From a virus, in IMG/VR virus record IMGVR_UViG_3300032236_001081, positions 1 to 64,000 of that record: 64,000 nucleotides of DNA, one strand, 5' to 3'. The notes below the pieces were generated by a model that saw only the letters and a list, made by a program, of their open reading frames with translations, was not told the origin of the DNA and did no database searches. A program made the position numbers and the translations under genes. Shown here one piece after another: positions 1 to 27,600 of this stretch; position 1 is the first letter of the stretch; every line of letters starts with the position of its first letter.

Positions 1-114
1 AAAATGAATGGTGCAAATGGAGAAGGTGCTACTATTGGTGCAAATGTTGGGGATGGCGTTTCTTTGAATCGTCAAGCATCAGGTTCTAATCAACGTGCTC
101 TGTGTGGTGTATAG
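1..114 (+). CDS. 3' end of a hypothetical protein (truncated by window edge)
   Basis: Frame +1 is open from base 1 to TAG at 112-114 (..GANVGDGVSLNRQASGSNQRALCGV*), just before the first promoter cassette. Confidence 0.6.
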   Translation, partial: KMNGANGEGATIGANVGDGVSLNRQASGSNQRALCGV

Positions 115-6344: not shown

Positions 6345-6534
6345 ATGAATGTAGTGTAGAATACATTATTTGATGGTTCAAATATGCTATTTGAAACTAT
6401 CATAAATAGACTCTTTTTATGTTGGTATCGTAATAATAATATACAATAAAAAGGTTTAAATAAATATAGTCCTTTGTTCTATTGTTATTACTATTGCTTA
6501 TCTAAAAAGAGGTATTGTTCAGTATGTCTTAAGT

Positions 6535-6592
6535 CTTATTAGCTACTCATTTCTTATGTTCTTATCCCTTATTAGCTACTCATTGCTTATGT
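6535..6592 (+). repeat. 25-bp direct repeat, 2 copies, period 33
   Basis: CTTATTAGCTACTCATT(T/G)CTTATGT at 6535-6559 and 6568-6592. Confidence 0.85.
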
Positions 6593-6641
6593 GTTGATAT
6601 CTCATTTAATGCTCTTATTTCTAGCCGTCTAGGCCCGCATA

Positions 6642-6670
6642 AGTATACCACACCTCTCAAAATTTGTCAA
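6642..6670 (-). promoter_or_regulatory. Minus-strand sigma70-type promoter firing into non-coding DNA
   Basis: Reverse complement reads TTGACA-17 bp-TATACT with TG extension. Confidence 0.75.
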
Positions 6671-6739
6671 CCCCCGAAATCCGAGTTATCAGGATTACTT
6701 ATGAGAGACCCACCAATCTTCAGTAAGACTTATAGCTCA

Positions 6740-6797
6740 TGTGCCACTTGTAGAGCTGGCACAGTAAACGGGCACAGCGCCTAAAATGTGGTATTCT
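6740..6797 (+). promoter_or_regulatory. Palindrome promoter cassette, copy 5
   Basis: TGTGCCACTTGTAGAGCTGGCACA at 6740-6763, then GTAAACGGGCACAG, then TGgTATTCT. Confidence 0.8.
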
Positions 6798-6851
6798 TAA
6801 GGAGTGGGAGGAGCAAGTCCCACATTAGTCTCAATCTTTATTCTTTTCATC

Positions 6852-7115
6852 ATGAACGACGACTACAAATTCAACTCTAACAACAGCAACAAACTTCCTT
6901 CTGAGATTGATACTTTAGATGATGCGATTGCTTATCTACAAGTGGCACGAGAGACTATGGGTGGAAATGCTAAGTTTCGTATGGTAGCTGATGGTGAAGA
7001 GACTGATACTGATTGCTATTACCGAGTTAACGATGTAGTGCTCACTGGCAATAAGTCTCTGATGGCAAAGTCTCGTTTTAATGATAACAGAGATTATGTT
7101 CTGTTTCTTTACTGA
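6852..7115 (+). CDS. Hypothetical protein
   Basis: ATG at 6852 (MNDDYKF); single-gene module between cassettes 5 and 6. Confidence 0.7.
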   Translation: MNDDYKFNSNNSNKLPSEIDTLDDAIAYLQVARETMGGNAKFRMVADGEETDTDCYYRVNDVVLTGNKSLMAKSRFNDNRDYVLFLY

Positions 7116-7139
7116 ATCTCACAGTAAGTCTCAGACACT

Positions 7140-7197
7140 TGTGCCACTTGTAGAACTGGCACAGTAAACGGGCACAGACGCCAAATTGTGCTATTCT
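7140..7197 (+). promoter_or_regulatory. Palindrome promoter cassette, copy 6
   Basis: TGTGCCACTTGTAGAACTGGCACAGTAAACGGGCACAG, 400 bp after copy 5; TGcTATTCT. Confidence 0.8.
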
Positions 7198-7251
7198 AAG
7201 GGGGTGGAGGGACGCCCCCAACACATTCAATACACCAAATTAACCAACACA

Positions 7252-7404
7252 ATGACTAACGAATTCAACCGCGACCTGATGATTTCTATGCTCCGTAAGG
7301 GTCAAAATGGCAATCAAATCCTTGACATTCTAAATGCAATTACTCCTGATAACGATGTGCAGGCAGATGTGACTGTGGAGGATGCTGAACTGATTGAAGC
7401 CTGA
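7252..7404 (+). CDS. Hypothetical 50 aa protein
   Basis: ATG at 7252 after an A/C-rich leader (MTNEFNRDLMISMLRKGQNGNQ). Confidence 0.7.
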   Translation: MTNEFNRDLMISMLRKGQNGNQILDILNAITPDNDVQADVTVEDAELIEA

Positions 7405-7975
7405 TTTCGTGAATAAGTATTCACTGCTACTTCGTGTAGAGTGAATACTTTGATACGGGGGGAGGGTTCGTTATTCTGTGCAAACAGTGGTGTTTACTTC
7501 GTGGTAATTAGCACTGTTTGCATACTTATCCTCCCTACTTCGTCCTGTTGAGCTACATAAACCACAGTCTACTTCGTCGCAGTTCTTTATATCCAATTTT
7601 GGATACGGGGGGAGGGTTAGCTATTATGTGCAAACAGTGCTACTTAGTTCGTTATATGCACCCCTAAATGTAAACAATTCGGCGCAATCACTTCGTGATT
7701 AGAATAGCTGAGAAGTTGACATTACTTCGTGATACTGATAGAATGTGAATTGCGATTGATAGTTACTTCGTGTTACTTTCAGTTGCAATTCTTCGTTTAT
7801 TTGATACGGGGGGAGGGTAGTGTATTTTAATCAAACAGTGTTACTTAATTCGTTATTTTGGCACTTCGTGTATTAGAATAAACAATTAATCGCAGTTCTT
7901 CGTGTATTAGAATTACAGTGTATTATGATTGTTGGGTATTATTAACCCTTACCGATGCCCCCCCCTTATATAATT
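7405..7975 (+). repeat. Non-coding repeat and hairpin tract (candidate replication origin or structured RNA)
   Basis: GATACGGGGGGAGGGT-N13-CAAACAGTG at 7452, 7602 and 7803; 14 TTCGT motifs; long inverted repeats; no ORF. Confidence 0.85.
7716..7744 (+). promoter_or_regulatory. sigma70-type promoter inside the repeat tract
   Basis: TTGACA (7716-7721), 17 bp, TAGAAT (7739-7744), with TG extension. Confidence 0.75.
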
Positions 7976-8135
7976 TCAATGTACTACCCTAAGCTATAAA
8001 CTACCAAATTCGCTAATATATTACATGTCTTCAAAAAAAATTCCCCAGGAAAAAAATATTGATAAAAGTGTTTTTTGTGAGAACTTTGAAATCATATATA
8101 ATTTTTAAACGCCCCCATTGAGAATAGGTAAAACA

Positions 8136-8285
8136 ATGAAAATAGATTTTGATGAATATGAGAAAGATATTCTCTTAGAGACACTTCAATATAGAATTGA
8201 GAATGACGAGAGATTAATACTTAGCGAAGGTATTAAAGATGATATTCAAGAACTTTTAAGAAAAGTAGAAGATGAATACTTATAA
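8136..8285 (+). CDS. Hypothetical 49 aa protein; not in ORF track
   Basis: MKIDFDEYEKDILLETLQYRIE...; AGGT upstream; overlaps the next start. Confidence 0.6.
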   Translation: MKIDFDEYEKDILLETLQYRIENDERLILSEGIKDDIQELLRKVEDEYL

Positions 8286-8436
8286 TATTTCGGTGGAAGG
8301 AAAAGTAGTATTAACTCAAATACCCACTGAAAATATTGAAGAAAACTTAAAGATTATCCGAGGGTTAGTTTGGACACACGGAGGGTCAGATAAGGATATT
8401 ATGGTTTCTATAAATACCAACGAATTGCACTCATAA
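8272..8436 (+). CDS. Hypothetical 54 aa protein; not in ORF track
   Basis: MNTYNISVEGKVVLTQIP...; TAA at 8434-8436. Confidence 0.6.
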   Translation: MNTYNISVEGKVVLTQIPTENIEENLKIIRGLVWTHGGSDKDIMVSINTNELHS

Positions 8437-8484: not shown

Positions 8485-9243
8485 ATGGCAAAAGGATTTA
8501 CAGTAAAGGCAAAGCCACCTGAGGCAAAGCCCCTTGAGGATGAATTTGATTTACAGGCAGCAAAGGAATTAATTAAAGGAAAGACAATTGTATTTTGTCT
8601 ACCTGGAAGAGGAGTTTCATATGTTTATCTGAAGAACTTTGTTCAACTATGTTTTGACTTAGTTCAAGCAGGAGCTGCCATTCAGATTTCACAGGACTAT
8701 AGTTCAATGGTAAACTTTGCACGTTGTAAGTGCTTAGGAGCCAATGTTCTGAGAGGACCAGACCAAATTCCTTGGGATGGAAAACTTCCTTATGACTACC
8801 AGCTATGGATTGACTCTGACATTGTGTTTAATACCGAGTCTTTCTACCGTCTAGTTGCAATGGATAAAGATATTGCAGCTGGTTGGTATTGCACGGAAGA
8901 TGGACACACTTCCTCAGTAGCTCACTGGTTGGATGAAGATGATTTCCGAGGCAATGGTGGTGTGATGAATCACGAAACCTTGGAAACTATGAGTAAGCGT
9001 CGGAAGCCTTTCACAGTAGATTACACTGGATTTGGTTGGACTTTGATTAAGCATGGAGTATTTGAACATCCTGGGCTAAAATATCCATGGTTTGCTCCAA
9101 AAATGCAAGTTTTTGAGTCTGGAGATGTTCAAGATATGTGTGGAGAAGATGTAAGTTTCTGTTTAGATGCAATTGCAGCAGGTTTTGAAATTTGGTGCGA
9201 TCCTAAAATCCGTGTCGGACATGAAAAAACTCGGGTAATCTGA
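8485..9243 (+). CDS. Conserved cyanophage protein with GT-A (GT2-like) glycosyltransferase motifs
   Basis: WIDSD (DxD), TGFGWTLI, GEDVSFC, C-terminal GHEK; MAKGFTVK start typical of cyanomyovirus core genes. Confidence 0.75.
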   Translation: MAKGFTVKAKPPEAKPLEDEFDLQAAKELIKGKTIVFCLPGRGVSYVYLKNFVQLCFDLVQAGAAIQISQDYSSMVNFARCKCLGANVLRGPDQIPWDGKLPYDYQLWIDSDIVFNTESFYRLVAMDKDIAAGWYCTEDGHTSSVAHWLDEDDFRGNGGVMNHETLETMSKRRKPFTVDYTGFGWTLIKHGVFEHPGLKYPWFAPKMQVFESGDVQDMCGEDVSFCLDAIAAGFEIWCDPKIRVGHEKTRVI

Positions 9244-12611: not shown

Positions 12612-15600
12612 ATGTCAGAAATAAAAAGAATAAAAATTCAGAATCTTATAGAGTCTCAAATCCCAGAATTTTTAAACGAGGAATCTCCACTTTTTCAAGA
12701 ATTTCTAAAACAGTATTATACTTCTCAGGAATATACTACAGGATTAAATGACCTTGCAATCAATTTAAATCAATATAAGGGAATTGAGAACTTCAACGCA
12801 GAGACATTTTATAATTCTTGTAAGTTAAGTTCAAATGTATTGTCTTTTGATAATGAAATTTCGGTCAATAGCACTTTTGGATTTCCTAGTTCATACGGAC
12901 TCTTAAAGATAGATAATGAGATTATTACCTATACTGGAATTACTACAAACTCTTTTACTGGATGCGTTCGTGGATTTAGTGGTATTGATGCCAATTCAGA
13001 CCATTCGGAATTAATATTCAAATCAACTTCGGTAGAAGAACATTCTTCTGGAAGTAAAGTATTTAATTTAAATTTACTATTTTTTAGTGAAATATTTAAA
13101 AAGTTTAAGTCTCAATATCTTTTAGGATTTGAAGACCGTAAGTTTTATTCACAGATAAGTTTACAAAATATATTAACCAGAGCAAAAGACTTCTACGCTT
13201 CAAAGGGAACTGATACTTCATATAAGTTGCTATTTAAAGTCTTATATGGTAAAGACATAAGTATCGTTGACCCTAAAAATTTTACAATAAAACCATCTAA
13301 CAATCCAGCTCTAGTTACTAAAAATATTGTTGTTGAAAAAATTAGTGGAGTTGGTGACCCTATAGATTTAATTGGAAAAACTATATCTCAAGCTATTCCT
13401 GGAGGAAGGACTGCTAGTGCTGCAATTTATAATGTAGAGTATAGAAAGACTGATAACAGAGACTTATATGAAATCTCATTAGATTCAGAAAGTTTTATCT
13501 ATAATTTTATTCCTACAAAAAAAACTAATGTAGTAGAGACTATTAATATTAACTCTACTTCTATTTCCGTAGATTCAACTGTTGATTTTCCAAGCTCTGG
13601 TACTGTTTATATAAAACCGGCCAATAGCTTTACTTCTATTCCAATTAATTACCAAAATAAAAGTGCAAATCAATTCCTAAATGTAAGTGGAATTAATATT
13701 GAAGTTCCTTTCAATAGTGATATTATTGAAGATAATTTTGCATACTCTACTTTAGATAATGGCAATATTCTTAAGTTTAGAATATTTAATATTATAGAGT
13801 CTGTTGATTATTCAAAGACTTCTAATTTGAGAGTCGGGGATAAAATTTATCTATCTTCTTTTGGTGAAAATTATCAGGATTTCCCTGAGTATAATAGTTG
13901 GATGTATAATCTTCCAACTTACCATAATATATCAAATATTAATGGTAACATAATTACCACGGTAGATAATATTTTACTTTATAAGGGAGATACTATTGTA
14001 TTATCAGACACTACAATTCCAAATAATCCTACATTAATAGTTCCAGTAGATAGTATTATTTCTAAAAATAAATTTACTGTCTTAGGAGTATTACCTAATA
14101 TTAGGTATAATCGGATTCAAAAAGTTATCAATAAGAGTAGATTAAATCCTAATATTTCCTCCAGAATTCAAAATACTTATATTGACACCTCAACTGATAA
14201 TATAGTTACATTATCTTCAGGACTTCCTGATTACAAAGATATTGTATTAGATAATAGAGAAGTAGGATTAACAATCACAGGAGTTGGAACATATATATTC
14301 TCCACTACTGATACACACTACTTCTATACTGGAGAGAAGATTCATTTTACTCCAAGTTTAGGGTTCAGTGGACTTTCTACTGGAACTTATTTTGTAAATA
14401 GATACTCTAACACTTCAATATCATTAGCTTACAGTTATAGTAATCTTTATGCTAATAATTACATAGGAATTCAAACTAGTATATCAAATATTGGAACCAT
14501 CGTAAAATTAGGGTATGAGGGAAAAAATGACTCAATCCTAGACCATCAAAAATTATTAAAAATATTCAATATCAATAATAAAAATAATGAGGATACAACT
14601 TTAAGTAAAAATACGATTGGCAAGTCTCTAGGATTACTTATTAATGGAGTTGAATTATATTCATCTGCTATATTTAATGAAGGGTATTATTATGGTCAGA
14701 TTAATGATATTGCAATTTCAAATTCAGGGAAGGATTATGATGTCATAAATGCCCCCACAATTCAAATTAGTGACGAAGGGGGGGAAGGTGCTGGAGCACA
14801 AGTTTATGCCAATATGAGAGGCACAGTGAGGGCAATCCGGGTGATTTCTCCAGGAATTGGCTATCAAGTTAAACCTAAGATTTCTATAATTGGTGGAAAT
14901 GGATATGGTGCAGTGCTTGAAAGTAATTTAGTACAGTCACCTATTATATCTTACTTCTTAGGTTCTGCAATATCATTAAATGTGATTACTTTTGCAGGCA
15001 CTCATAAGTTTCAAGATACAGAACAAGTAATTTATCAAAATAATTCAAATCCAGAATTAGTGGGATTAACTAACAACTCCACTTATTATGTTGGTGTTAT
15101 AAATTCAACTCAAATTAAACTATACCGAAATAGAGATGATTCTATCAATAAGACTAATGCAATTGTTATTGGAAATAATGACACTGGAATTTATTATTTA
15201 ACGACTGTTGATATTAAAAATACTATAACTGAAGTATATGTAAAAGATAGTGGAAAAAATTATTCAAGTAAAACTATTAAACTTTCATCTTCAGAATATA
15301 TTGATGATACTACAGTTGGAATTAGCACTTTTGATAACTACATACTTGTTAAAAATCACAATTTAAGAGAGAAAGATATTGTTGTATATTCAACTACGAA
15401 TACAGTAATTTCAGGATTATCTACAACTAATCAGTATATTGTAAGTGTAATTGATACTAATAAGTTTAGATTAGCAGAAGCTGATTCTACAGATTTTTAT
15501 TATAATTATTCAAACAATAGATTTGTAAATCTGAATTCTATTGGTTCAGGAACACATACTTTTAAATATCCACCTATTCAAGTGGTGGTAGAAACTACCT

Positions 15601-18600
15601 CTGGGATATCTTCAACTACAATTTCTCCAGTATTTACCCCTATTGTACTAGGAGAATTTGAAAGCTTATTTATAGAAAATTATGGCACTAACTATGGTTC
15701 TTCTGATATTATAAACTTCAATAGAAGGCCAAATGTAAAAATTCAAACTCCATCTATAGACGCACTACTTAATCCAATTATACTTGAAGGAAAAATTGTT
15801 GGAGTTCAGATTTTATCTGGTGGAGCTGGATATGGAAAAGATATTGATATTGTAATTGAGGGTTCTGGAAAATATGCGCTATTAATTCCTACCGTTGAAA
15901 ATGGTAAAATTATAGATGTGACTGTAGTAAATTCTGGACTTGGGTATGTAAATAAAAAAACTAGCCTTCAAGTTGTAAAAAGAGGAAATTCTGCTAAATT
16001 TATAGCAAATCTAACAAAATGGACTTTAAATCAATACAAAAAATATTCAAATAAAATAAATGAGCTTACAGGAGAAGGAATTCTTATACCAAGTAATAAT
16101 GTTAAAAAAACTTTACAGTATATTAATTTTTATCCGCCAAAGAAATTAAGAGATGAAGTTGGAGATACTTCTGGAAATGCTTCTCCTATTTTAGGATGGG
16201 CTTATGATGGAAATCCGATATATGGACCCTATGTGAATTTACCTTCATCAACTTCTCCTTCAAAAGTTAGAAGTAGTTATCAATTATCTAATATAAATGT
16301 TAATACTATAAGTAGTATAAGGCCTGTCCAGTGGAATAACGGGGATTTCATAGAAGATTATAAGTATATTCCAAATTTTGGAGATTTAGATGAACATAAT
16401 GGAATGTTCATCAAAACTAATGAATTTCCTAAAGGAATATATGCGTATTTTACAACATTAGATGGTTTAAATTCTCCAGCATATCCATATGCAATAGCTA
16501 CGGAATTTAAAAATACGCCAATAATTAAAAATTTTAACGGATATGTTAATCAAGATTTAAATTTAGATTCTATTAATTTTATTAGAAATACTGGACCATA
16601 TTATCTAAATTCCGAAAATTCCGGATATTTACCAATAAGTAAAATTGAGCCAAAATATAAGCAAGAATTTATAGTAAATAATATTATTAAGTCTGGAATA
16701 GATTCTATTGGTATAGTATCTCCAGGTGATAATTTTATGGTTGGAGATAGGCTTCAATTTGAAAATATTCCAAATACTATTAGTCCAAGCTGCTCCGTAT
16801 CAAATATTAATGGAGTTCCTTTAACTAATATAGCAGTAGGTATTTCTACTTTAAAAAATGTAACATTTAAAAATAAAAATAATATAATTACAGGTATTAC
16901 GACAATACCTCATAATTTAGTATCAAATGATGTTGTTGTGATATCTTCAATTTCTTCTAATCAATATTCATCTTTAGAAGGAAGTAAAACTATTTCAGTA
17001 AGTCAAAAAACAACCGGGATTACAGTAGGCATCTTATCATCAACAGATACTGGAGTATCTACTGCGATTTCCGTCAATGATGTTTCTGGATTTAATATTG
17101 ATGATTATATTAAAATTGATTCTGAAGTATTGAAAATTAGAGATATTAAAATCAATCAATCTCAACTACTTGTAGATAGAAGTAATGATGGAGGAATTCA
17201 TACTGCTGGCGTATCTTTAGTTAATCTTCTTCCCACTAAATTTACATTTAATGAGCCTAAATTTAATGCCAATTTAAAAAGTAATTCTGTTGTATATTTT
17301 AATCCTTCAAATAGTATAGGGTTAGGAACTACTGGAACTACTTATATTGATTATGGCAATACAACTTATTTTGCTCCAGCCCAATCAATCTATATTGAAA
17401 ATCACAAATATTATACAGGTCAGCCCCTAACATATAAGGTGGGAATTGGAGGAACTGGATTGGTCGTGTCAAATTCTCCAACTTCACCTCAATTTAAATT
17501 AATTGATGGTCAAATAGTATATGCAGTAAATTATGGTGCTAACTTTGTAGGTCTATCTACATTAGGATTTACTACCAGTACTGGAATAGGTGTTAGTTAT
17601 AATTCATTATACTTTAGAGATAATAGCAATTCCCTAGGAAATTCTCATAACTTTACTACTCAATATGATTTAATCAGTGGAACAACTGAAAGATATACTA
17701 TAACTGCTAATACAAAATCTCCACATTTATTATCAACTAATGATATAATTGATTTTAAAGTGATAACCTCCGATGCAGTTGATGTTGAATTAAATTATAA
17801 TTCAACTATTCGTAAAATAACTACTCCGCCTCTTACTTTTAATGCATCAACTGAAGTTAATGTTACAACATCTACAATTTATATTTCAGATGATTCGCTT
17901 CAAACTGGGGATAAAGTTGTATATACGAATTCAACCAATCCTTCTATTGGTGGATTAGTTGATAATGAAAGATATTTTGTATTAAGAGAAAGCCCAAATG
18001 CAATCAAATTGACTCAATATTATGATGACATATCTAAAAATAATTATGTCAAGTTAACTAGCACTAGTACTGGCACCCATTCAATTGCAAAAGTAAATCC
18101 ACTAATTTATTTAAATAAAGGAAATAAATACGAATTTATAGGAATTGGTACATATATTAAACTATACAAAGATTCAAATTACTTCTACGAATTGGAACCA
18201 TATAGGTATACCTCATTTACCTTAGATACCATTAATCAAGAGTACCCACAGGAGTTATATTATACTTTATCGCCTTTATCCGGGAGACCAGTATCTTTAG
18301 ATACTGATGTAATATCTGGAGGTAGAATTGTACTACTTGAAAATTCATATGATGGTAGATATTCAGTAATTCCAACTTCTGATACTTCATTCAGATTGAA
18401 CTTAAAAAATAAACCTCGTTATTTGGGAACTATTAATTTTAATAAGGCAACATATTCTACAACTTCAAAAACTGCTAAAGGTCCCATAAAAACTATTAAA
18501 GTAAATCAAAAGGGGAAATTTTATAATAAAATACCTAAAATTACTTCAATACTCACAACCTCTGGAAGTGGTGAATTATTAACTACAGTTTCTAGTACGA

Positions 18601-21600
18601 TAGGAAAAGTTGATACATTAGAAAGAGTTAAAGATGGATTTGATTATCCCACAGATGGCACACTATTGCCAAAATTATCTATACCTACTATTGCAATATT
18701 AAATAAAGTTTCTAATGTTAAATCCGTAGATGTGCTTTATGGAGGAAAAAATTATAATACTCCACCAAACTTGAAAGCAATTGGAAATAATGTATTACAA
18801 TTAACTACAGAACTTAAAGGAAATAGTGTATCTAAGGTAAGTATTATAGTAAATGATAATTCTCTTGATACACCACTATCAATAGTGCCTGTAAATAATT
18901 CTAATGGATTTGATATTATTGGAATAACAACTTCATCAACTAGAAATAGTATTGAACTAGACACTACATCTTATCCTTCATTATCTGGTGTGTTCCCATT
19001 TAGTGTGGGAGATGAAATTTTTATAGAAAACTGCAGTATCACCTCAGAGGTTCAAAAGAATTATAATTCTAAAGATTATAATTATAGATTTTTTAAAGTA
19101 ACCTCAGTAAATCAGAATACTTCAACTATAGAATATGATATAACTGGATTATTTGGATTTGGTACTTACACTTTAGAAAAGGGCTATGGTACGGTAGTTA
19201 ATCGTAAAGATATGGCTACTTTTAAGATGAATATAACTGATGATATTAATTATATTTCTGGTGAAAAACTAATTGGATTTAATACTACTGGAAATCAAAC
19301 CTTTACTGGATATGTAATGGAAGATGGGTGGGATAGTAAAATAAAGCAGATAAGAATTAATAAGTCTGAAGGGGAATTGGATATTGGATACCGATTGAAA
19401 GGAGAATTATCAAATCTCAAGGGAGAAATTACAAATGTAAATAATTTCAATCTAAAATCAAAATTAGGAGTATCTAGAGATAAAATAAATTATACTCAAG
19501 ATGATATTGGAGATTTAAATAATTCATTACAAAAAATATCGGATAATAATTATTATCAGAATTTTTCTTATGCTATAAGAGGTGAGGTTCCATATAGTGA
19601 TTGGAAAGAACCTGTACATTCAGTAATTCACCCTTCAGGATATAGAGAATTTTCAGATTTAGAAGTTATTAGTCAGGCAGGTAAACCTGTTGGAATGAAG
19701 ACTACTACTAACAATGAAGTAACTTTAATCGTAAAAATAGATAATGAAGTATCATTGCATACTCGTGATAATTTTGCAATTGCTTATGATGAAACCCAAC
19801 TTAATCAGTCATATGCTGAAAGAATAAGTTTTGGTGCAATTGAGCCTTGGAATGTTGCTGGAGTTGGGTTAACTGCAATTAAAGGTATTGACTTATTGCC
19901 TTATATTTTAAATAATACAAATAAAGTAATTGAAATTGATGATATTAGTGAGCAGTTTACTGGAACTAATGCTGAAATAAACATACAATCTAATATACCA
20001 GTAACTTTTAATCCACAATATCCATATAACTTAGGAGTATCTACTGCGGGACTATCAGTTGGAGATATTGTTGGTTATTCTACTTATCATACATATCCAG
20101 AAAATACTGGTATTACTTCAATCGGAATTGAAAGTGTATTTACATTATATCCACATAAGTCATATTCAGGAATAGTGACTGAGAGTTTAAGTTTTTCTAG
20201 AAGATTAAATGGAAATATAGTATCTGGAATTAGTTCATTTAAATTAACTAATAAAACTACTCCTCTTTTCAGTAGGACTTTTAATTCTAATGATAGTTCT
20301 ATTGTAAATTTAACCACATACAGTTTTAATATTAATAATCATAACTTACAAACTGGTCAAAAAATATTCTATTCTTATCAGGGTGGAACTCCTATTAGAA
20401 TTGCTACTACTAATTTAGTTTTAGGTGGAATATCTACAAATATACTACCTTCAACTTTATATGTCAATAAAATTAATGATAATAGTTTCCAAGTGGCTGG
20501 GCTATCTACATCTATAAGATTAGAATTGACTAGTTTGGGAATAGGAACTCATAAATTTACTGTGGACAATCCAAATGTTAATGCTTTAATTTCTATTGAT
20601 AATATCATACAGAAACCAATTTACAATAGACCAATTACTTTAGGGTTAGTAAATAATGCTAATGTGGGAATAACTTCAATTTATGTGAATTCTGGAATAA
20701 GTTCTATTTCAACTATTGATATTCTTAAAATTGATGAGGAACTTCTAAAAATAATTAATGTAGGTATAGGTTCAACTAATGTAATAAATGTTAAACGAGG
20801 GTTCCTAGGAACTCAGGAGAAGAACCATACATCTGGGTCTAGTATTAATATCATTAGAGGTGACTATAATATTATTGAAGATACTATATTCTTTACATCT
20901 CCTCCACAAGGTCCTACTGGATTAGAAGGTCTAAAAGTATCGTCTTCTTTCTCGGGTAGAGTATTCAGTAGAAAATTTGACCCTACATATCCAGATGATA
21001 AAAATATTATTTTTGATGATATATCGGACCAGTTTACAGGACTATCTACATTCATCTTAAAACAAAATCAAAATAGTATAACGCAAATTTATAATAATAG
21101 GAATTATGGAACTGATGCAAGTAATAACCCACTGATATTCATAAACAATATATTACAAGTTCCTGAAACTGATTTTACAATTCAAAATAATAGTGTAAAT
21201 GAAATTAGTTATCTAACGGGAATTCCAAATTCTGGTAAGATTTTAAATGTTGGTATCAATACAGCCTTCGGCTATGTGCCTCTTATAGGTGCTGCTGCAA
21301 CCGTTTCGGTGTCTGGATTTGGCACTATCTCCAATGTGTATCTTACAGGGGCAGGGACTGGCTATAGAACTCCTCCATACATTAGCCTAGGCTCTACAGT
21401 TGGGCAAGGAGCTTCTATTATTGCTAATGTAGGTACATCCGGAACTATTACTGGGTTTACTATCGTAAATCCAGGAAGTGGTTATACTTCAACTGCAGTT
21501 CCTATTGTAAATATTGATACTCCTCTACCATACTATAACTTAGATGTGGAATATGCCCCAGGAAATTCTGGATTAGGTACAGGAGCCAAAGTATCAATTT

Positions 21601-23090
21601 CAGTTGCAAGTGATACAACTATCGGTAGTTTCTTATTAAATGACCCAGGTTCCCTATACAAAGTAGGAGATATCTTAAAAGTAGTAGGATTGACTACAAA
21701 TCCTACTGTAGGAAACTTATTTGATGAGTTTAGATTAACTGTAACTGAAACTGTTTCTGATATTTTTAGTGGATATTATCCTGGACAATTTATACAATTT
21801 AATGATATTTCAAATAAGTTTAATGGTTTTGAAAGATTATTTGACATAAAAACTCCTGTAAATGGGATTGATACTAGGATTACATTTAAAGTTCCTCCTG
21901 GTTCAGATTTAGTTATTGAAAATAATTTCTTTATTCTTATTAATGGCATCTTACAAGTGCCAACTGTAGCATACAGATATTTTGCTGGAAGAATACAATT
22001 TACAGAGCCTCCATCTTCTGGCTCTACTTGCACTATATTATTCTATAGAGGTTCTAGCTCTGATGTGGAGGAAGTTACTCCAGTCCAAACTATAAAAGAT
22101 GGTGATATTTTACAATCTAGACAAAATGTAACTTCTACAGTAACTACCGAACAGCTAGAACGAGTTGTTAAAAGAATAGTACAATCAAATACTTTAGATA
22201 CTTTTGTTTATACTGGATATGGTATTACGAATACTGCTAGACCTTTAAGTTGGACTAAACAAACTGCTGATAGAATTATTAATGGCTCTTTGATTTCCAA
22301 ATCAAGAACAACTTTAAAATCTAATATTACTCCGAACACATTCTTAATTAAATCTGTAGGTATCACTGATACTGCAATTTATGTAAATGATGCATTCCCA
22401 TATTTCAGTGAATTGGATTCTGGTCCGACTAAATTACCAGAATTCAAGAGAAATATTAATATTTTAGATTATACTTCTTTAGACTTAATAAAATATGAAA
22501 AACTAGTCTCAGTGAAAGTTAAAGGTGATTATGGTACTATAGTTGGAATTAATACATTTATATCTTCTGTTGGAATACAAACAGGAAGATTAGAATTTAA
22601 ATTAAAATCAAATACATATAACAATAATGATTTAGGAATTGGATATAGTTCTTTAAATACTTTTGGAATTAATTCAAGTCAACTAGAAATTGGGGACTAC
22701 TTTGTAATTTCTAATAGTAATGTAATATGCGGACACGCACTGACTGGAATAACTGATAGTTTAGGGGGAATGTCTAATTATCCAAATTCAAAAGTTGGAA
22801 CTGCAAGAAGTTTTATTGATGGTGTTTATAGAGTGGAGGGGGTAACTGCTGCAAATGCCGGAATTGTTACTGTTAGTTGTAATTTTGTTGCTGTAGATGG
22901 TGGACTATCTGTAAATATTGCAGGATTATCTCAAACTACTTTCTATGGAAATTATAGTTGGGGTAAATTTTACGATTATGATAACCGACAATTGGGAACT
23001 CCTAAGCAATTTGATGTGAATACTAACGATGGGCTAATTGGACTATCTACTTCATCTCAGGTTTCTAGAACAGTACCTCTATTACTTTGA
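12612..23090 (+). CDS. g7: Baseplate wedge initiator gp7-like giant protein, 3492 aa
   Basis: Between g6 and g8; DFYASKGT..SYKLLF..LYG; DNNYYQNFSY.I...W...V..HPSG. Confidence 0.85.
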   Translation: MSEIKRIKIQNLIESQIPEFLNEESPLFQEFLKQYYTSQEYTTGLNDLAINLNQYKGIENFNAETFYNSCKLSSNVLSFDNEISVNSTFGFPSSYGLLKIDNEIITYTGITTNSFTGCVRGFSGIDANSDHSELIFKSTSVEEHSSGSKVFNLNLLFFSEIFKKFKSQYLLGFEDRKFYSQISLQNILTRAKDFYASKGTDTSYKLLFKVLYGKDISIVDPKNFTIKPSNNPALVTKNIVVEKISGVGDPIDLIGKTISQAIPGGRTASAAIYNVEYRKTDNRDLYEISLDSESFIYNFIPTKKTNVVETININSTSISVDSTVDFPSSGTVYIKPANSFTSIPINYQNKSANQFLNVSGINIEVPFNSDIIEDNFAYSTLDNGNILKFRIFNIIESVDYSKTSNLRVGDKIYLSSFGENYQDFPEYNSWMYNLPTYHNISNINGNIITTVDNILLYKGDTIVLSDTTIPNNPTLIVPVDSIISKNKFTVLGVLPNIRYNRIQKVINKSRLNPNISSRIQNTYIDTSTDNIVTLSSGLPDYKDIVLDNREVGLTITGVGTYIFSTTDTHYFYTGEKIHFTPSLGFSGLSTGTYFVNRYSNTSISLAYSYSNLYANNYIGIQTSISNIGTIVKLGYEGKNDSILDHQKLLKIFNINNKNNEDTTLSKNTIGKSLGLLINGVELYSSAIFNEGYYYGQINDIAISNSGKDYDVINAPTIQISDEGGEGAGAQVYANMRGTVRAIRVISPGIGYQVKPKISIIGGNGYGAVLESNLVQSPIISYFLGSAISLNVITFAGTHKFQDTEQVIYQNNSNPELVGLTNNSTYYVGVINSTQIKLYRNRDDSINKTNAIVIGNNDTGIYYLTTVDIKNTITEVYVKDSGKNYSSKTIKLSSSEYIDDTTVGISTFDNYILVKNHNLREKDIVVYSTTNTVISGLSTTNQYIVSVIDTNKFRLAEADSTDFYYNYSNNRFVNLNSIGSGTHTFKYPPIQVVVETTSGISSTTISPVFTPIVLGEFESLFIENYGTNYGSSDIINFNRRPNVKIQTPSIDALLNPIILEGKIVGVQILSGGAGYGKDIDIVIEGSGKYALLIPTVENGKIIDVTVVNSGLGYVNKKTSLQVVKRGNSAKFIANLTKWTLNQYKKYSNKINELTGEGILIPSNNVKKTLQYINFYPPKKLRDEVGDTSGNASPILGWAYDGNPIYGPYVNLPSSTSPSKVRSSYQLSNINVNTISSIRPVQWNNGDFIEDYKYIPNFGDLDEHNGMFIKTNEFPKGIYAYFTTLDGLNSPAYPYAIATEFKNTPIIKNFNGYVNQDLNLDSINFIRNTGPYYLNSENSGYLPISKIEPKYKQEFIVNNIIKSGIDSIGIVSPGDNFMVGDRLQFENIPNTISPSCSVSNINGVPLTNIAVGISTLKNVTFKNKNNIITGITTIPHNLVSNDVVVISSISSNQYSSLEGSKTISVSQKTTGITVGILSSTDTGVSTAISVNDVSGFNIDDYIKIDSEVLKIRDIKINQSQLLVDRSNDGGIHTAGVSLVNLLPTKFTFNEPKFNANLKSNSVVYFNPSNSIGLGTTGTTYIDYGNTTYFAPAQSIYIENHKYYTGQPLTYKVGIGGTGLVVSNSPTSPQFKLIDGQIVYAVNYGANFVGLSTLGFTTSTGIGVSYNSLYFRDNSNSLGNSHNFTTQYDLISGTTERYTITANTKSPHLLSTNDIIDFKVITSDAVDVELNYNSTIRKITTPPLTFNASTEVNVTTSTIYISDDSLQTGDKVVYTNSTNPSIGGLVDNERYFVLRESPNAIKLTQYYDDISKNNYVKLTSTSTGTHSIAKVNPLIYLNKGNKYEFIGIGTYIKLYKDSNYFYELEPYRYTSFTLDTINQEYPQELYYTLSPLSGRPVSLDTDVISGGRIVLLENSYDGRYSVIPTSDTSFRLNLKNKPRYLGTINFNKATYSTTSKTAKGPIKTIKVNQKGKFYNKIPKITSILTTSGSGELLTTVSSTIGKVDTLERVKDGFDYPTDGTLLPKLSIPTIAILNKVSNVKSVDVLYGGKNYNTPPNLKAIGNNVLQLTTELKGNSVSKVSIIVNDNSLDTPLSIVPVNNSNGFDIIGITTSSTRNSIELDTTSYPSLSGVFPFSVGDEIFIENCSITSEVQKNYNSKDYNYRFFKVTSVNQNTSTIEYDITGLFGFGTYTLEKGYGTVVNRKDMATFKMNITDDINYISGEKLIGFNTTGNQTFTGYVMEDGWDSKIKQIRINKSEGELDIGYRLKGELSNLKGEITNVNNFNLKSKLGVSRDKINYTQDDIGDLNNSLQKISDNNYYQNFSYAIRGEVPYSDWKEPVHSVIHPSGYREFSDLEVISQAGKPVGMKTTTNNEVTLIVKIDNEVSLHTRDNFAIAYDETQLNQSYAERISFGAIEPWNVAGVGLTAIKGIDLLPYILNNTNKVIEIDDISEQFTGTNAEINIQSNIPVTFNPQYPYNLGVSTAGLSVGDIVGYSTYHTYPENTGITSIGIESVFTLYPHKSYSGIVTESLSFSRRLNGNIVSGISSFKLTNKTTPLFSRTFNSNDSSIVNLTTYSFNINNHNLQTGQKIFYSYQGGTPIRIATTNLVLGGISTNILPSTLYVNKINDNSFQVAGLSTSIRLELTSLGIGTHKFTVDNPNVNALISIDNIIQKPIYNRPITLGLVNNANVGITSIYVNSGISSISTIDILKIDEELLKIINVGIGSTNVINVKRGFLGTQEKNHTSGSSINIIRGDYNIIEDTIFFTSPPQGPTGLEGLKVSSSFSGRVFSRKFDPTYPDDKNIIFDDISDQFTGLSTFILKQNQNSITQIYNNRNYGTDASNNPLIFINNILQVPETDFTIQNNSVNEISYLTGIPNSGKILNVGINTAFGYVPLIGAAATVSVSGFGTISNVYLTGAGTGYRTPPYISLGSTVGQGASIIANVGTSGTITGFTIVNPGSGYTSTAVPIVNIDTPLPYYNLDVEYAPGNSGLGTGAKVSISVASDTTIGSFLLNDPGSLYKVGDILKVVGLTTNPTVGNLFDEFRLTVTETVSDIFSGYYPGQFIQFNDISNKFNGFERLFDIKTPVNGIDTRITFKVPPGSDLVIENNFFILINGILQVPTVAYRYFAGRIQFTEPPSSGSTCTILFYRGSSSDVEEVTPVQTIKDGDILQSRQNVTSTVTTEQLERVVKRIVQSNTLDTFVYTGYGITNTARPLSWTKQTADRIINGSLISKSRTTLKSNITPNTFLIKSVGITDTAIYVNDAFPYFSELDSGPTKLPEFKRNINILDYTSLDLIKYEKLVSVKVKGDYGTIVGINTFISSVGIQTGRLEFKLKSNTYNNNDLGIGYSSLNTFGINSSQLEIGDYFVISNSNVICGHALTGITDSLGGMSNYPNSKVGTARSFIDGVYRVEGVTAANAGIVTVSCNFVAVDGGLSVNIAGLSQTTFYGNYSWGKFYDYDNRQLGTPKQFDVNTNDGLIGLSTSSQVSRTVPLLL

Positions 23091-24673: not shown

Positions 24674-27600
24674 ATGGCTCAAAATACAAATCTCAACATT
24701 TTTCCATATTATGATGATTTTGACCCTTTAAAAAATTATTATAAAGTACTATTTAAACCAGGAGTTTCCATTCAAGCAAGGGAAATTACTACATTACAAT
24801 CTATCTTACAAAATCAAATTGAAAGATTTGGTAATCATTTTTTTAAAGAAGGTTCTGTAGTTATACCTGGGCAAATTGCTTATGATTTTAATTATACTTG
24901 TGTTGAAATTAACGATTCTCATTTAGGTATTCCAGTATCTGCATATATTGATAAGCTTGTAGGTAAATTGATTCAGGGGGAAACTAGTGGAATTAAAGCA
25001 AAAATAGATAATTATATTACTAATGTAGATTCAGATAGATCAAATTATACCCTTTATATAAAGTACCAAAGTTCTGATACTACTAATTTCAAATTAAGTA
25101 AATTTAATGATACTGAAAATTTGATTGTCCTTGAGGATGTTGATTATTCATTATCTTCATTGCGAGCAAATTCTACTTTTGCAACTACAATTTCTTCAGA
25201 ATCTACTTCCGTAGGAACTGCTGCGAAAATAGCAAAAGGTATATATTTTATTAGGGGATATTTTGTAGAAGTTTCATCACAAACAGTCATTTTAGACCAA
25301 TACACGAATACTCCATCATATAGAATTGGACTATCAATTCAAGAAGATTTTGCTGTAGCATCTAATGAATATGATGACCTATTTGATAACGCTCAGGGAT
25401 TTTCAAATTATACATCATCAGGTGCAGATAGATTAGTTATTAATACTACTTTAATTAAAAAATCGTTAAATGACTTTAACGATGAGAATTTTATTGAATT
25501 ATTGAGAGTAAGAAATGGTATTGTAGAGAAAATTACAAAAACTACAACTAATAACTTATTAACTGAGGAACTTGCAAGAAGAACTTATGATGAGTCTGGA
25601 GACTATTATGTGAAACCATTTAAAGTTGCATTAAATGAATCATTAAATAATAAAATTGGAAATAATGGCATTTATAATCTCGGTCAACAAACTAAAAGTG
25701 GAGGAAGCCCTTCTGATGATTTAGCCTGTCTCAGTATAGATGTAGGTAAGGCATATGTTAGAGGATATGAAGTAGAACCTCCTACTGCTTCTCAAATTGA
25801 TATTAATAAGCCTAGACAGACTGCCACTGCAGTTAATGAGTCTGTGCCATTCAGCATAGGTAAACAAATAATATTAAATAATGTATATGGAAGTATTCCT
25901 GTTGGAATCAATACAACTTCTATTGTAAAATTATATAGTGATAGGACTTCAAGTGCTGGCTCTCCGTCTGGAACCGAAATTGGGGTAGCACGAGTATATG
26001 ACTTTAAACTTAAAAATTCCGAGTATGTTGATAAATCTACAAAATTTGAATGTTCTTTATATGATATTCAAACCTATACTAATATTACTTTAAATTCAAA
26101 TATTTCTTCTATAACTACTCCTGCTTTTATTGAAGGCAAAAATGGTGGAGCTTCTGGATATCTAGTATCTAATGTAACAGACTCAAATGCAGTATCATTA
26201 TATCAAGTTTCTGGAACTTTCCTAATAGGAGAGCAAATCAAAATTAATGGTATAGATGACACCAGAACTATTAGAACTGTTAGAGATTATAGTATTTCTG
26301 ATATTCATCAATTATATCAAACTGGGTTTACTGCTGATGTATTATTATCTAAGGTAGTAATACTAGGTTCTTCTAGTTCATTTTCAATTTCAGATGGGAC
26401 TTCTGGAATAAGCACAGTAACTAGTTCAAATCAAAATTTCTATTCGGGAATAAATGTAGGAGATATAGTATCATACACTATTGGAAATTCTAAATTATCC
26501 ACATATAGTAAAGTATCTACTATTAGTTCAACACTGAAATCAATAACAATTGTTCCTACGGTAGATGTGCCTAATGTATGTTTAGGTAGTTTACCAACTA
26601 CAGTATCTACTGTAAATGATTTTAAAAAAATTACATTAGAATTATTGAATACACCTAATGCTTATTTGTATTCTGAATTACATAATAAAAATATTTCAAA
26701 TTTAAACCTTAAAAGTTCTGATGTAATTATCAAAAAATCATATAATATTGCTCCCAATAGTCTTACTTCGGGTTCATATAGTGTAACATTAGAGTCTAAC
26801 CCCGATTTAACTTTAGAACCATTTGATGAAGAAGACTATACTTTAACTTTTTCAAATGGAGTTATAGTTTCATTAGATAATCAAAAATTAATACCCAACA
26901 ATAAAACTATAACAATTCAAGGTATACCTTCTGGGAATGCGAATGCGGCTACACTTACGGTAACATTTAAAAAAGTTAATACAAAGACTCGTAAAAAAAT
27001 ATATAATCCTTGCTCCACATTAATTATTAATAAAACTAGCTCAGGAGTATCTACTTCCACGAATGGACTAACTCTTAGTAATGTATACGGACTGAGAGTA
27101 GAAGATAAAGAAATATCATTAAATATTCCAGATGTTGAGTCGGTTTTAGCGATATATGAATCTTCAACTACTAATGAACCAGAACTACCATCAATTACTT
27201 TGACTGATTTAAATTCTAGTATCTTAAATTCTAGTATTGGTGAAAAAATTATTGGGACTACAAGTAATGCAGTTGCTACATTAGTTTCAATTACTAGTAA
27301 TAAAGTTAATTTAGTATATTTAAATGAAAATAAATTTGTTGCTAATGAAGAGGTTACATTTCAAGTATCTAATATAAAGGCAACTGTGTTTTCAGTTGCA
27401 TTAGGAGACAAAAATATTAGAAATTCTTATGTTTTTGATAATGGATATAGAAAAGAATTTTTAGATTTCTCAAGAATTATACGAAATTCTAACGCTGAAA
27501 GTCCAACCCGAAAACTTAAAATAGTCTACAATAATTATACTATTAAATCTGATGATGATGGTGATTTTGTTGGAGTGAATTCATATGATAAAGATAGATA

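What the first reader, a model, noticed from the sequence alone, without database searches (positions are those of the whole stretch)
7406..7903. Fourteen same-strand TTCGT motifs, quasi-periodic, several capping hairpins (GAA triloops on the minus strand)
Seen: TTCGT at 7406, 7431, 7467, 7498, 7539, 7573, 7648, 7692, 7726, 7767, 7792, 7849, 7865 and 7899, all on + and mostly 25-44 nt apart, usually as ACTTCGT. Several sit at hairpin tips: AAGTATTCAC/GTGAATACTT (7415-7450), TGCAAACAGTG/CACTGTTTGCA (7479-7522, extended by GGGAGG/CCTCCC), and AATCAC-TTC-GTGATT (7686-7700). Known: the complement AC-GAA-GT is a C-GNA-G mini-hairpin, which is unusually stable in ssDNA and used in N4 virion RNA polymerase promoters. 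T4 primase makes pppACNNN pentamers, and TTCGT would template pppACGAA. Inference: these are iterated recognition signals on ssDNA (primase, initiator or helicase loader), or UUCG-like loops of an RNA scaffold.
Basis: partly seen in the sequence, partly recalled or inferred. Interest (0 to 1): 0.75.

Follow-up and report, generated by a model that had tools for sequence, protein, structure and literature searches.

The report
Co-oriented TTCGT word field in cyanophage
A 500-base gene-free stretch of this T4-like virus of cyanobacteria holds 14 same-direction copies of the word TTCGT; the array is real, is kept in related viruses inside their candidate replication and early-control region, and most likely docks an unidentified sequence-specific protein rather than forming the hairpin or primase signals first proposed.

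Summary
There are 14 TTCGT on the + strand and none on the - strand in 7406-7903, against about 0.4 expected. The window is a T4-like cyanomyovirus (Kyanoviridae-like). The field is non-coding and single-copy. It lies between a backward-facing promoter with an AT-rich tract (6345-6670) and the forward genes that lead to gp25/gp6.

About 10% of relatives carry such a field at the same place, always in the gene-sense orientation. In eight of them it touches 3-8 perfect cyanobacterial DnaA boxes; the window has none.

The words survive while the spacers diverge. A second co-oriented word, ACAGTG, keeps fixed offsets to TTCGT. In 8 of 10 strong promoters inside the arrays, a TTCGT lies within the spacer.

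Four hairpins that display TTCGT are real and are kept by compensation in the closest relative. Across the family, however, TTCGT is not enriched at hairpin tips. G-runs are not consistently on its strand, and only 47% of words fit the T4 primase rule.

Best reading (about 0.45): an iteron-like or operator-like docking field for an unknown protein in the origin/early-control region.

This scan had already found TTCGT fields and DnaA-box modules in other cyanophages. I found no published description.

The parts
7406..7903 (+). Field of 14 co-oriented TTCGT words (extended consensus a-C-TTCGT-(T/G)-a-T-w)
7449..7502 (+). 54-nt module, copy 1: ATAC + G6AG3 block + TAT-box + CAAACAGTG + TTCGT. Copies 2 and 3 are at 7599-7652 and 7800-7853.
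   Evidence: family D1: 100, 85 and 78% identity; kept in L001
7415..7450 (+). Hairpin H1 with TTCGT in the loop
   Evidence: the L001 homologue refolds with a changed stem
7459..7536 (+). Hairpin H2: G-rich block pairs with CCTCCC; inner stem GCAAACAGTG/CACTGTTTGC; TTCGT lies in the apical part
7686..7700 (+). Hairpin H3, 6-bp stem with a TTC triloop; identical in L001
7747..7791 (+). Hairpin H4 with TTCGT in the loop, directly downstream of the 7716 promoter. The stem is kept in L001 through one compensatory change and four G-U type changes.
7716..7744 (+). Strong sigma70-type promoter TTGACA-17-TAGAAT with TTCGT inside the spacer
   Evidence: conserved in L001
7484..7920 (+). Second co-oriented word, ACAGTG, at 7484, 7634, 7835 and 7915. 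Offsets of 14-17 nt to TTCGT recur in distant relatives.
6642..6670 (-). Backward-facing sigma70-type promoter TTGACA-17-TATACT. A counterpart lies left of the field in every array-bearing relative.
6345..6641 (.). ORF-free, AT-rich tract downstream of the backward promoter (82% AT at 6388-6467); candidate unwinding element
7252..7404 (+). 50-aa ORF just upstream of the field. It is widespread in relatives with or without a field, so it is not specific to it.
7905..8117 (+). Highly conserved non-coding block (C8 + TATAAT, A-runs, promoter-like site at 8075-8102), shared by nearly all relatives
8136..8285 (+). Small acidic ORF A49, linked to the field in most relatives
8272..8436 (+). Small ORF B54, overlapping A49; beta-beta-alpha-beta fold with no known relative; linked to the field in most relatives
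8485..9243 (+). Conserved anchor gene (phrog_1574; called glycosyltransferase in phage Sf-CH5), used to find homologous loci

Best explanation
The TTCGT field is an iteron-like or operator-like docking array on double-stranded DNA. An unidentified sequence-specific protein, phage or host, recognises an asymmetric site of about 8-10 bp centred on TTCGT, possibly together with the co-oriented word ACAGTG. It occupies many sites across the gap between the two divergent early promoters of the cyanomyovirus control region. Occupancy would set the activity of the embedded rightward promoter, because a TTCGT lies in its spacer. Because the field occupies the same slot as the host DnaA boxes in relatives, it would probably also help to start or time replication from the adjacent backward-promoter/AT-rich module. 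Shown: the array, its strand bias, its conservation, its single-copy status and its placement. Inferred: protein binding, promoter control and the link to replication.
For: There are 14 words against 0.39 expected, all on one strand. Arrays of 9-14 words occur at the same place and in gene-sense orientation in L001, L005, L012, L051, L070, L215, L231, L252, L295 and L298. The words are conserved islands: 12 of 14 are kept in L001 (84% identity in words vs 75% elsewhere). None of the 36 listed variant positions within the array in three other metagenome runs hits a word, where about 5 are expected. Neither TTCGT nor ACAGTG occurs on the + strand in any other non-ORF stretch of the contig, so this is a dedicated local grammar and not a general promoter class. 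TTCGT lies inside the spacer of 8 of 10 strong + promoters within arrays, against 0.30 expected (p 0.0015), at varying offsets. In eight relatives the field abuts or surrounds 3-8 perfect TTTTCCACA boxes, the cyanobacterial DnaA box (PMC5987646). Each of the 11 array-bearing loci has a strong backward promoter to its left, and in 7 of them the AT-richest tract lies beyond it. That is the layout of iteron origins: Rep sites + DnaA boxes + DUE (PMC4980987). T4 oriE likewise combines direct repeats with an early promoter (PMC3016281). From my own recollection, not checked in a source here, oriE lies just upstream of baseplate gene 6.
Against: No cognate binding protein was found. Neighbouring ORFs have no DNA-binding domain, and the linked small ORFs A49 and B54 are acidic or of unknown fold. 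The invariant core is only 5 nt, with weak flanks. Spacing is irregular and helical phasing is weak, unlike the 17-22-bp phase-dependent iterons. The window itself has no DnaA box. Cumulative GC skew shows no switch here. About 90% of relatives, including the cultured phages S-T4, Sf-CH5 and ACG-2014f, lack the field, so it cannot be essential. Four hairpins conserved by compensation are not explained by simple duplex binding.
Confidence: 0.45

Rival explanations
1. The field acts on the + strand as a single-stranded nucleic acid. Either it is a structured leader or non-coding RNA that shows repeated UUCGU words, some in hairpin loops, to an RNA-binding factor. Or it is the DNA strand displaced when rightward transcription forms an R-loop, with the words serving as start or loading signals for primase or helicase.
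For: Strict strand bias, always in gene-sense orientation. The + strand as RNA folds best (z -5.1, against -4.0, -3.75 and -3.4). Four hairpins show TTCGT in their loops and refold in L001 despite changed stems; H4 is kept through G-U type changes that pair only on the + strand. Rightward promoters lie upstream of and inside the field. G6AG3 runs lie on the non-template strand in this lineage. T4 oriF and oriG work through R-loops (PMC3016281).
Against: Across 135 words in 11 arrays, hairpin-tip placement equals that of control 5-mers. G-runs lie on the word strand in only 4 arrays, and 5 arrays have C-runs instead. Only 47% of words have the T that the T4 primase rule needs. There is no terminator-like site and no Rfam match. 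Words lie both upstream and downstream of the internal promoter.
Confidence: 0.22
2. The words are part of a local cluster of unusual promoters: a TTCGT element just upstream of a -10-like TAT-box, with ACAGTG at the transcript start. These would fire many short transcripts, for example primer RNAs, or soak up host RNA polymerase.
For: A TAnnnT hexamer follows within 0-4 nt of 30% of words, against 19% of control positions (p 0.004). The unit TTCGT / TAT-box / about 6 nt / ACAGTG recurs in distant loci, with offsets of 16-17. The three 54-nt modules score as weak sigma70-like sites.
Against: Seventy percent of words have no such hexamer. The -35-like parts of the modules are not kept in L001, and the TTCGT of the module is itself lost in two of three copies. 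Sites 13-17 nt apart in L070 could not all be promoters. The unit heads no gene anywhere else in the contig.
Confidence: 0.13
3. The field has no function of its own. It is a pile of decayed promoter/stem-loop (PeSL-like) cassettes left by gene loss in a hyperplastic region, and TTCGT is merely a shared remnant.
For: The region borders a hyperplastic block of tiny ORFs with repeated promoter cassettes. Promoter plus hairpin units resemble PeSLs (PMC4122927). Most relatives lack the field. Its content turns over fast.
Against: The same 5-mer is kept at 9-14 copies in lineages whose spacers no longer align. Natural variants avoid the words. The other cassettes of the window (palindrome type) do not carry TTCGT, and no non-ORF TTCGT lies outside the field.
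Confidence: 0.1

Closest known systems
Bacteriophage T4 oriE (Kreuzer and Brister 2010, PMC3016281)
   Same: A T4-type phage; a cluster of short direct repeats plus an early sigma70-type promoter; the role of the repeats is unproven in T4 too. From my own recollection, not checked in a source here: oriE lies just upstream of baseplate gene 6 and is followed by the small early genes repEB and repEA. In the window the field is followed by two small ORFs (A49, B54) and lies about 2.4 kb upstream of gp25-gp6.
   Different: The T4 repeats are 12 nt and evenly spaced; here the core is 5-10 nt and the spacing is irregular. A49 and B54 have no detectable likeness to any PHROG, so no RepE match was found. 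T4 has no host DnaA boxes there.
Iteron-type theta origins with host DnaA boxes (RK2, P1, F, pSC101; PMC4980987)
   Same: Arrays of co-oriented initiator sites beside host DnaA boxes and an AT-rich element; the position and orientation of sites matter. Relatives L012, L051, L070, L215, L231, L252, L295 and L298 show words + DnaA boxes + a strong backward promoter, with the AT-richest tract beyond it in 5 of these 8.
   Different: Iterons are 17-22 bp, regularly spaced and bound cooperatively in helical phase, and a Rep gene lies beside them. None of these was met here.
Cyanobacterial oriC / DnaA-box clusters (TTTTCCACA; PMC5987646)
   Same: Relatives carry 3-8 perfect boxes in or beside the field.
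   Different: The window has none within one mismatch in 6345-8137. TTCGT bears no likeness to the DnaA box.
Heptad or iteron operator arrays of small repressors (omega of pSM19035, ParR/parC of R1); recalled from memory, not tested
   Same: Many short co-oriented sites overlapping promoters; a TTCGT lies in the promoter spacer.
   Different: Those sites are contiguous or evenly spaced, and the small repressor gene is adjacent and basic. Here the spacing is irregular and the adjacent small ORFs are acidic.
PeSL promoter/stem-loop cassettes of T4-type phages (PMC2839356, PMC4122927)
   Same: Early promoter joined to a stem-loop at the edge of a hyperplastic region (promoter 7716-7744 with H4).
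   Different: PeSLs flank ORFs and are scattered. They are not defined by a repeated 5-mer, and here 14 words lie in one gene-free field.
N4 virion-RNA-polymerase hairpin promoters and GNA mini-hairpins
   Same: One site (7686-7700) is a 6-bp stem with a 3-nt loop.
   Different: This is a T4-like phage with a baseplate-type giant ORF after gp6. The other 13 words lack such a stem, and the family shows no hairpin-tip enrichment.

Membership tests
Iteron-type replication origin | Several direct repeats of 17-22 bp, regularly spaced, with helical phase needed for cooperative Rep binding (PMC4980987) | tested here: not met
   Information is confined to about 5-10 nt. Spacings run from 4 to 175 nt, and Rayleigh R is about 0.2 at 10-10.5 nt.
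Iteron-type replication origin | Host DnaA boxes and an AT-rich unwinding element beside the repeats | tested here: inconclusive
   DnaA boxes are present in 8 array-bearing relatives but absent from the window. The AT-rich tract 6345-6641 lies about 750 nt away, beyond a backward promoter.
Iteron-type replication origin | An adjacent gene for a winged-helix Rep initiator that binds the repeats | tested here: not met
   No DNA-binding domain was found in 29 neighbouring ORFs by Pfam or PHROGs. B54 has no structural relative in the PDB.
T4 oriE | [quoted passage not shown] | tested here: inconclusive
   An early-type promoter and two small downstream ORFs are present. The repeats are neither 12 nt nor evenly spaced, and A49/B54 match no PHROG. 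Replication activity is not testable here.
N4-type hairpin promoter | Hairpin with a 5-7 bp stem and 3-nt loop at each site, in a phage that carries a virion RNA polymerase (from memory) | tested here: not met
   Only 7686-7700 fits. Tip placement over 135 words equals the controls. The genome is T4-like.
T4-type primase start site (5'-GTT/GCT on the template, pppAC primers; from memory) | T directly 3' of the GT of the word | tested here: not met
   4 of 14 words in the window; 64 of 135 (47%) over 11 arrays. The specificity of the cyanophage primase itself is unknown.
Protein-sponge or scaffold RNA (CsrB-like; from memory) | A discrete transcript with its own promoter and terminator, and the motif preferentially in hairpin loops | tested here: not met
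   No terminator-like site; no loop enrichment across the family. Expression could not be tested, because no RNA run holds the stretch.
Any Rfam family / tRNA | Covariance-model or tRNA match | tested here: not met
   Only one chance-level hit outside the field (E 0.69). No tRNA anywhere in the window.
General promoter class of this phage | The motif recurs upstream of genes across the genome | tested here: not met
   No + strand TTCGT or ACAGTG in any other non-ORF stretch of the 75.7-kb contig.

The most novel reading that the evidence does not exclude
Cyanomyoviruses have a modular origin/control region whose recognition module is swappable. At one slot between divergent promoters, some lineages carry host DnaA boxes, some carry private word arrays such as TTCGT + ACAGTG, and some carry both. 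The TTCGT field would then be the binding array of an undiscovered phage- or host-encoded initiator or timer that can replace or assist DnaA. Alternatively it would be a set of programmed priming or loading signals on the strand displaced by transcription.
Probability: 0.2. Interest if true: 0.8.

Novelty: new variant of a known kind. Interest (0 to 1): 0.5.

Why it matters
The replication origins of T4-like cyanophages, among the most abundant viruses in water, have never been mapped. Only a single theta origin has been predicted, for Syn9 (PMC2984593). A conserved single-copy field of strand-specific words, occupying the same slot as host DnaA boxes in relatives and overlapping an early promoter, gives a concrete and testable handle: a short probe for pull-down of the binding factor, and a defined element to delete. 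If the binder is a host protein, the field would be a second example, after DnaA boxes, of these phages docking host regulators. If it is a phage protein, it would point to a new initiator or repressor family. If the field proves dispensable and unbound, it documents how fast short-word arrays turn over in phage control regions.

Tried and rejected
1. IMG/VR scan for three spaced CTTCGT. The dense hits outside cyanomyoviruses were acidic Asp/Glu-repeat coding sequence on the opposite strand, with spacings in multiples of 3, or a 7-nt microsatellite. They are unrelated.

2. Scan of 185,579 prokaryote genomes for three spaced ACTTCGT. No cyanobacterial non-coding array was found. The one Prochlorococcaceae hit (L427) is a coding repeat. 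So there is no sign of a host regulon or host oriC using the word.

3. BLAST of the region and of relatives' regions against cultured phages. Only the downstream conserved block matches, in phage DSL-LC03. Nobody has annotated the field.

4. Scan for the G-rich module core. Only the L001 contig has it, so no further close relatives were available for covariation.

5. Sequencing runs. No RNA holder is listed, so expression could not be assessed.

6. Candidate binders. A49 and B54 are linked to the field in most loci, but there are exceptions both ways (L298 and L252 lack them; L011 and L241 have them without a field). B54 folds confidently but matches nothing in the PDB. Pfam and PHROGs found no DNA-binding domain in the neighbours.

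7. Helical phasing is weak.

8. Hairpin-tip enrichment is absent across the family. The higher unpaired probability of the words is trivial, because their complement is absent from the field.

9. G-run strand coupling is not conserved, which weakens the R-loop/G-quadruplex reading of the same stretch.

10. Column-wise covariation on the MAFFT alignment is unreliable for H1 because of an indel. It was replaced by independent folding of the L001 homologues.

11. Literature searches for cyanophage + DnaA box, iteron or origin found no description of this element. The T4 oriE primary paper is not held.

Full report
**What the window is**

PHROG matches identify a T4-like myovirus: gp25 and gp6 baseplate wedge, tail sheath, portal, large terminase and gp43-type DNA polymerase. 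All large ORFs are on the + strand, at about 32% G+C. The conserved 252-aa gene at 8485-9243 is 83-85% identical to genes of Synechococcus phages S-T4, Sf-CH5 and ACG-2014f, all Kyanoviridae. In those phages it also lies upstream of gp25-gp6. The assembly held is one 75.7-kb contig.

**The observation**

- From the contig's own frequency, 0.39 copies are expected in this stretch.
- No other 500-nt window holds more than 3.
- Eight copies are ACTTCGT.
- The stretch 7405-8135 has no ORF of 50 aa or more, no tRNA and no Rfam match.
- The field also contains three copies of a 54-nt module: a G6AG3 block, a TAT-box, CAAACAGTG and TTCGT.
- It holds one near-consensus promoter, TTGACA-17-TAGAAT, at 7716-7744.

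**Conservation**

I used the anchor protein to fetch 80 IMG/VR loci. Of the 50 with enough upstream sequence, five (L001, L005, L012, L051, L070) have 10-13 + strand TTCGT within 500 nt of the same gap. Most of the others have 1-5.

A second scan, ascertained only on paired DnaA boxes, brought in five more field-bearing loci: L215, L231, L252, L295 and L298. In all of them the words are on the gene-sense strand.

Against the closest relative, L001, 12 of the 14 words are kept while the spacers have diverged. Identity is 84% in the words and 75% elsewhere. In contigs of three further metagenome runs, none of the 36 listed variant positions inside the field falls within a word, where about 5 are expected. 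Unaligned contig ends there also carry TTCGT.

**False leads**

Pattern scans of IMG/VR and of prokaryote genomes returned mostly acidic coding repeats read on the opposite strand, or microsatellites. The element is confined to cyanomyoviruses, and no host array was seen.

**Context**

In L012, L051 and L070 the field abuts 7-8 perfect TTTTCCACA words within about 200 nt. This is the cyanobacteria-specific DnaA box (PMC5987646). The independent DnaA-box scan showed that many cyanomyoviruses carry 4-7 such boxes in this same gap. Some have a TTCGT field as well, and some do not: L247, L230, L314 and L250. The window has no box within one mismatch here.

Every field-bearing locus has a strong backward-facing promoter (TTGAC[A/T]-17-TAnAnT) to the left of its field. 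It lies 68-736 nt away, except in L298, where it overlaps the field's first word. In 7 of the 11 loci the AT-richest 80 nt lies further left still. DnaA boxes, where present, lie between that promoter and the field, or inside the field.

In the window this module is the - strand promoter at 6642-6670, firing into the ORF-free tract 6345-6641. Two small ORFs separate it from the field. The field therefore occupies the space between divergent early promoters, the same slot as the DnaA boxes.

**Grammar of the field**

Over 104 words from eight arrays, the consensus is a-C-TTCGT-(T/G)-a-T-w, with little information beyond that. Spacing is irregular, with only weak 10-10.5-nt phasing.

A second word, ACAGT(G), is also co-oriented: 42 copies on + and 11 on - over 11 arrays. 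The offsets TTCGT to ACAGT (16-17 nt) and ACAGT to TTCGT (14-16 nt) recur in loci that no longer align. Neither word occurs on the + strand in any other non-ORF stretch of the contig. So this is a private, single-locus grammar and not a promoter class used for genes.

In 8 of the 10 strong + strand promoters inside arrays, a TTCGT lies within the 16-18-nt spacer, at varying offsets. The expected fraction is 0.30 (p 0.0015). That is what an operator looks like.

**Structure**

The field folds better than shuffles on both strands and in both chemistries. The + strand as RNA folds best (z -5.1).

Four hairpins carry a TTCGT at or near the tip: 7415-7450, 7459-7536, 7686-7700 and 7747-7791. All four refold in L001, two of them with changed stems. 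H4 keeps its pairing through G-U type changes that work only on the + strand. So these hairpins are real and selected in this lineage.

Hairpin display is not a family rule, however:
- Over 135 words, a stem of 5 bp or more around the word is no commoner than around control 5-mers (12.6% vs 13.6%).
- G-runs lie on the word strand in only 4 of 11 arrays, and 5 arrays have C-runs instead.
- Only 47% of words have the T that T4-type primase needs after GT.

The N4-promoter, mini-hairpin and primase readings are therefore not supported as general explanations. A + strand RNA or displaced-strand role remains a live rival for this lineage.

**Search for a partner**

The two small overlapping ORFs just downstream, A49 (8136-8285) and B54 (8272-8436), travel with the field in most loci, but with exceptions both ways. 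A49 is strongly acidic. B54 folds confidently as beta-beta-alpha-beta and matches nothing in the PDB. No neighbouring ORF has a recognisable DNA-binding domain. The binder, if there is one, is unidentified and may be a host protein.

**Verdict**

The best-supported reading is a docking field for a sequence-specific protein in the origin/early-control region. It is nearest in kind to T4 oriE (direct repeats + early promoter; PMC3016281) and to iteron origins with DnaA boxes (PMC4980987). It fails the defining tests of iterons: site length, regular phased spacing and an adjacent Rep gene. I therefore file it as 'works like', not as a member.

Evidence against an essential role:
- About 90% of relatives lack the field.
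- There is no GC-skew switch here.

**Earlier notes of this scan**

Earlier notes describe TTCGT-box fields in other uncultured cyanophages and DnaA-box origin-like modules in many more. My independent scans agree with both. Another reading of this same stretch as a G-quadruplex/R-loop origin is weakened by the strand inconsistency of the G-runs across the family. I found no published description.

Noticed in passing
L012:2165-2333, L051:482-653, L070:4200-4414, L215:394-460, L252:6807-6925, L247:581-882, L230 near 12909, L314 near 5023: Clusters of 4-8 perfect cyanobacterial DnaA boxes (TTTTCCACA) lie in the non-coding gap upstream of the anchor-gp25-gp6 block of many uncultured cyanomyoviruses, with or without a TTCGT field. 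I found no published description; earlier notes of this scan report the same on other genomes.
   Followed up: partly
window 6345-6670: A consensus minus-strand promoter (TTGACA-17-TATACT, 6642-6670) fires into an ORF-free tract with a 25-nt direct repeat and an 82% AT block (6388-6467). A strong backward promoter lies left of the field in every field-bearing relative.
   Followed up: partly
window 7905-8117: Non-coding block nearly identical in L001 and recognisable even in Synechococcus phage DSL-LC03: a C8 run followed by TATAAT, an A-run/TTCCCCAGG/A-run element, and a promoter-like site at 8075-8102. Its function is unknown; it is probably the promoter and leader of the anchor operon.
   Followed up: no
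window 8136-8436: Two small overlapping ORFs. A49 is very acidic and probably helical. B54 has AF2 pLDDT 90 and a beta-beta-alpha-beta fold, with no Pfam, PHROG or PDB relative. Both are found almost only in loci that carry a TTCGT field.
   Followed up: partly
window 7484, 7634, 7835, 7915, and the arrays of 10 relatives: ACAGT(G) is a second strand-biased word of the field (42 on + vs 11 on -), with recurrent offsets of 14-17 nt to TTCGT. Downstream of the arrays it also forms a conserved palindrome of the type AAACAG-N2-CTGTTT.
   Followed up: partly
L075:516-1179, L076:3952-4615, L064:3001-3543, L029:191-577, L004:333-811: Other relatives carry different over-represented short words in nearby non-coding gaps (TGACC/CTCAG, CCTGC, CACTG, TGTTT). 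This suggests that this control region collects lineage-specific word arrays.
   Followed up: no
window 148, 2153, 2529, 6740, 7140: Repeated TGTGCCA-N10-TGGCACA palindrome cassettes head small early ORFs; another first-stage note covers them. One copy also sits between the DnaA boxes and the 50-aa ORF in L252 (6950-6975).
   Followed up: no
window 12612-23090 and 24674-31951: Giant ORFs of 3,492 and 2,425 aa follow gp6. At this position ACG-2014f annotates a baseplate wedge subunit, so the first one is not an N4-like virion RNA polymerase.
   Followed up: no
runs X4, X5, X7-X9, X12, X14, X17 and X19: Runs that hold parts of this stretch are mostly lake or freshwater metagenomes, which hints at a freshwater or brackish source although the nearest cultured relatives infect marine Synechococcus. 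The shares are small and only X4 was laid.
   Followed up: no
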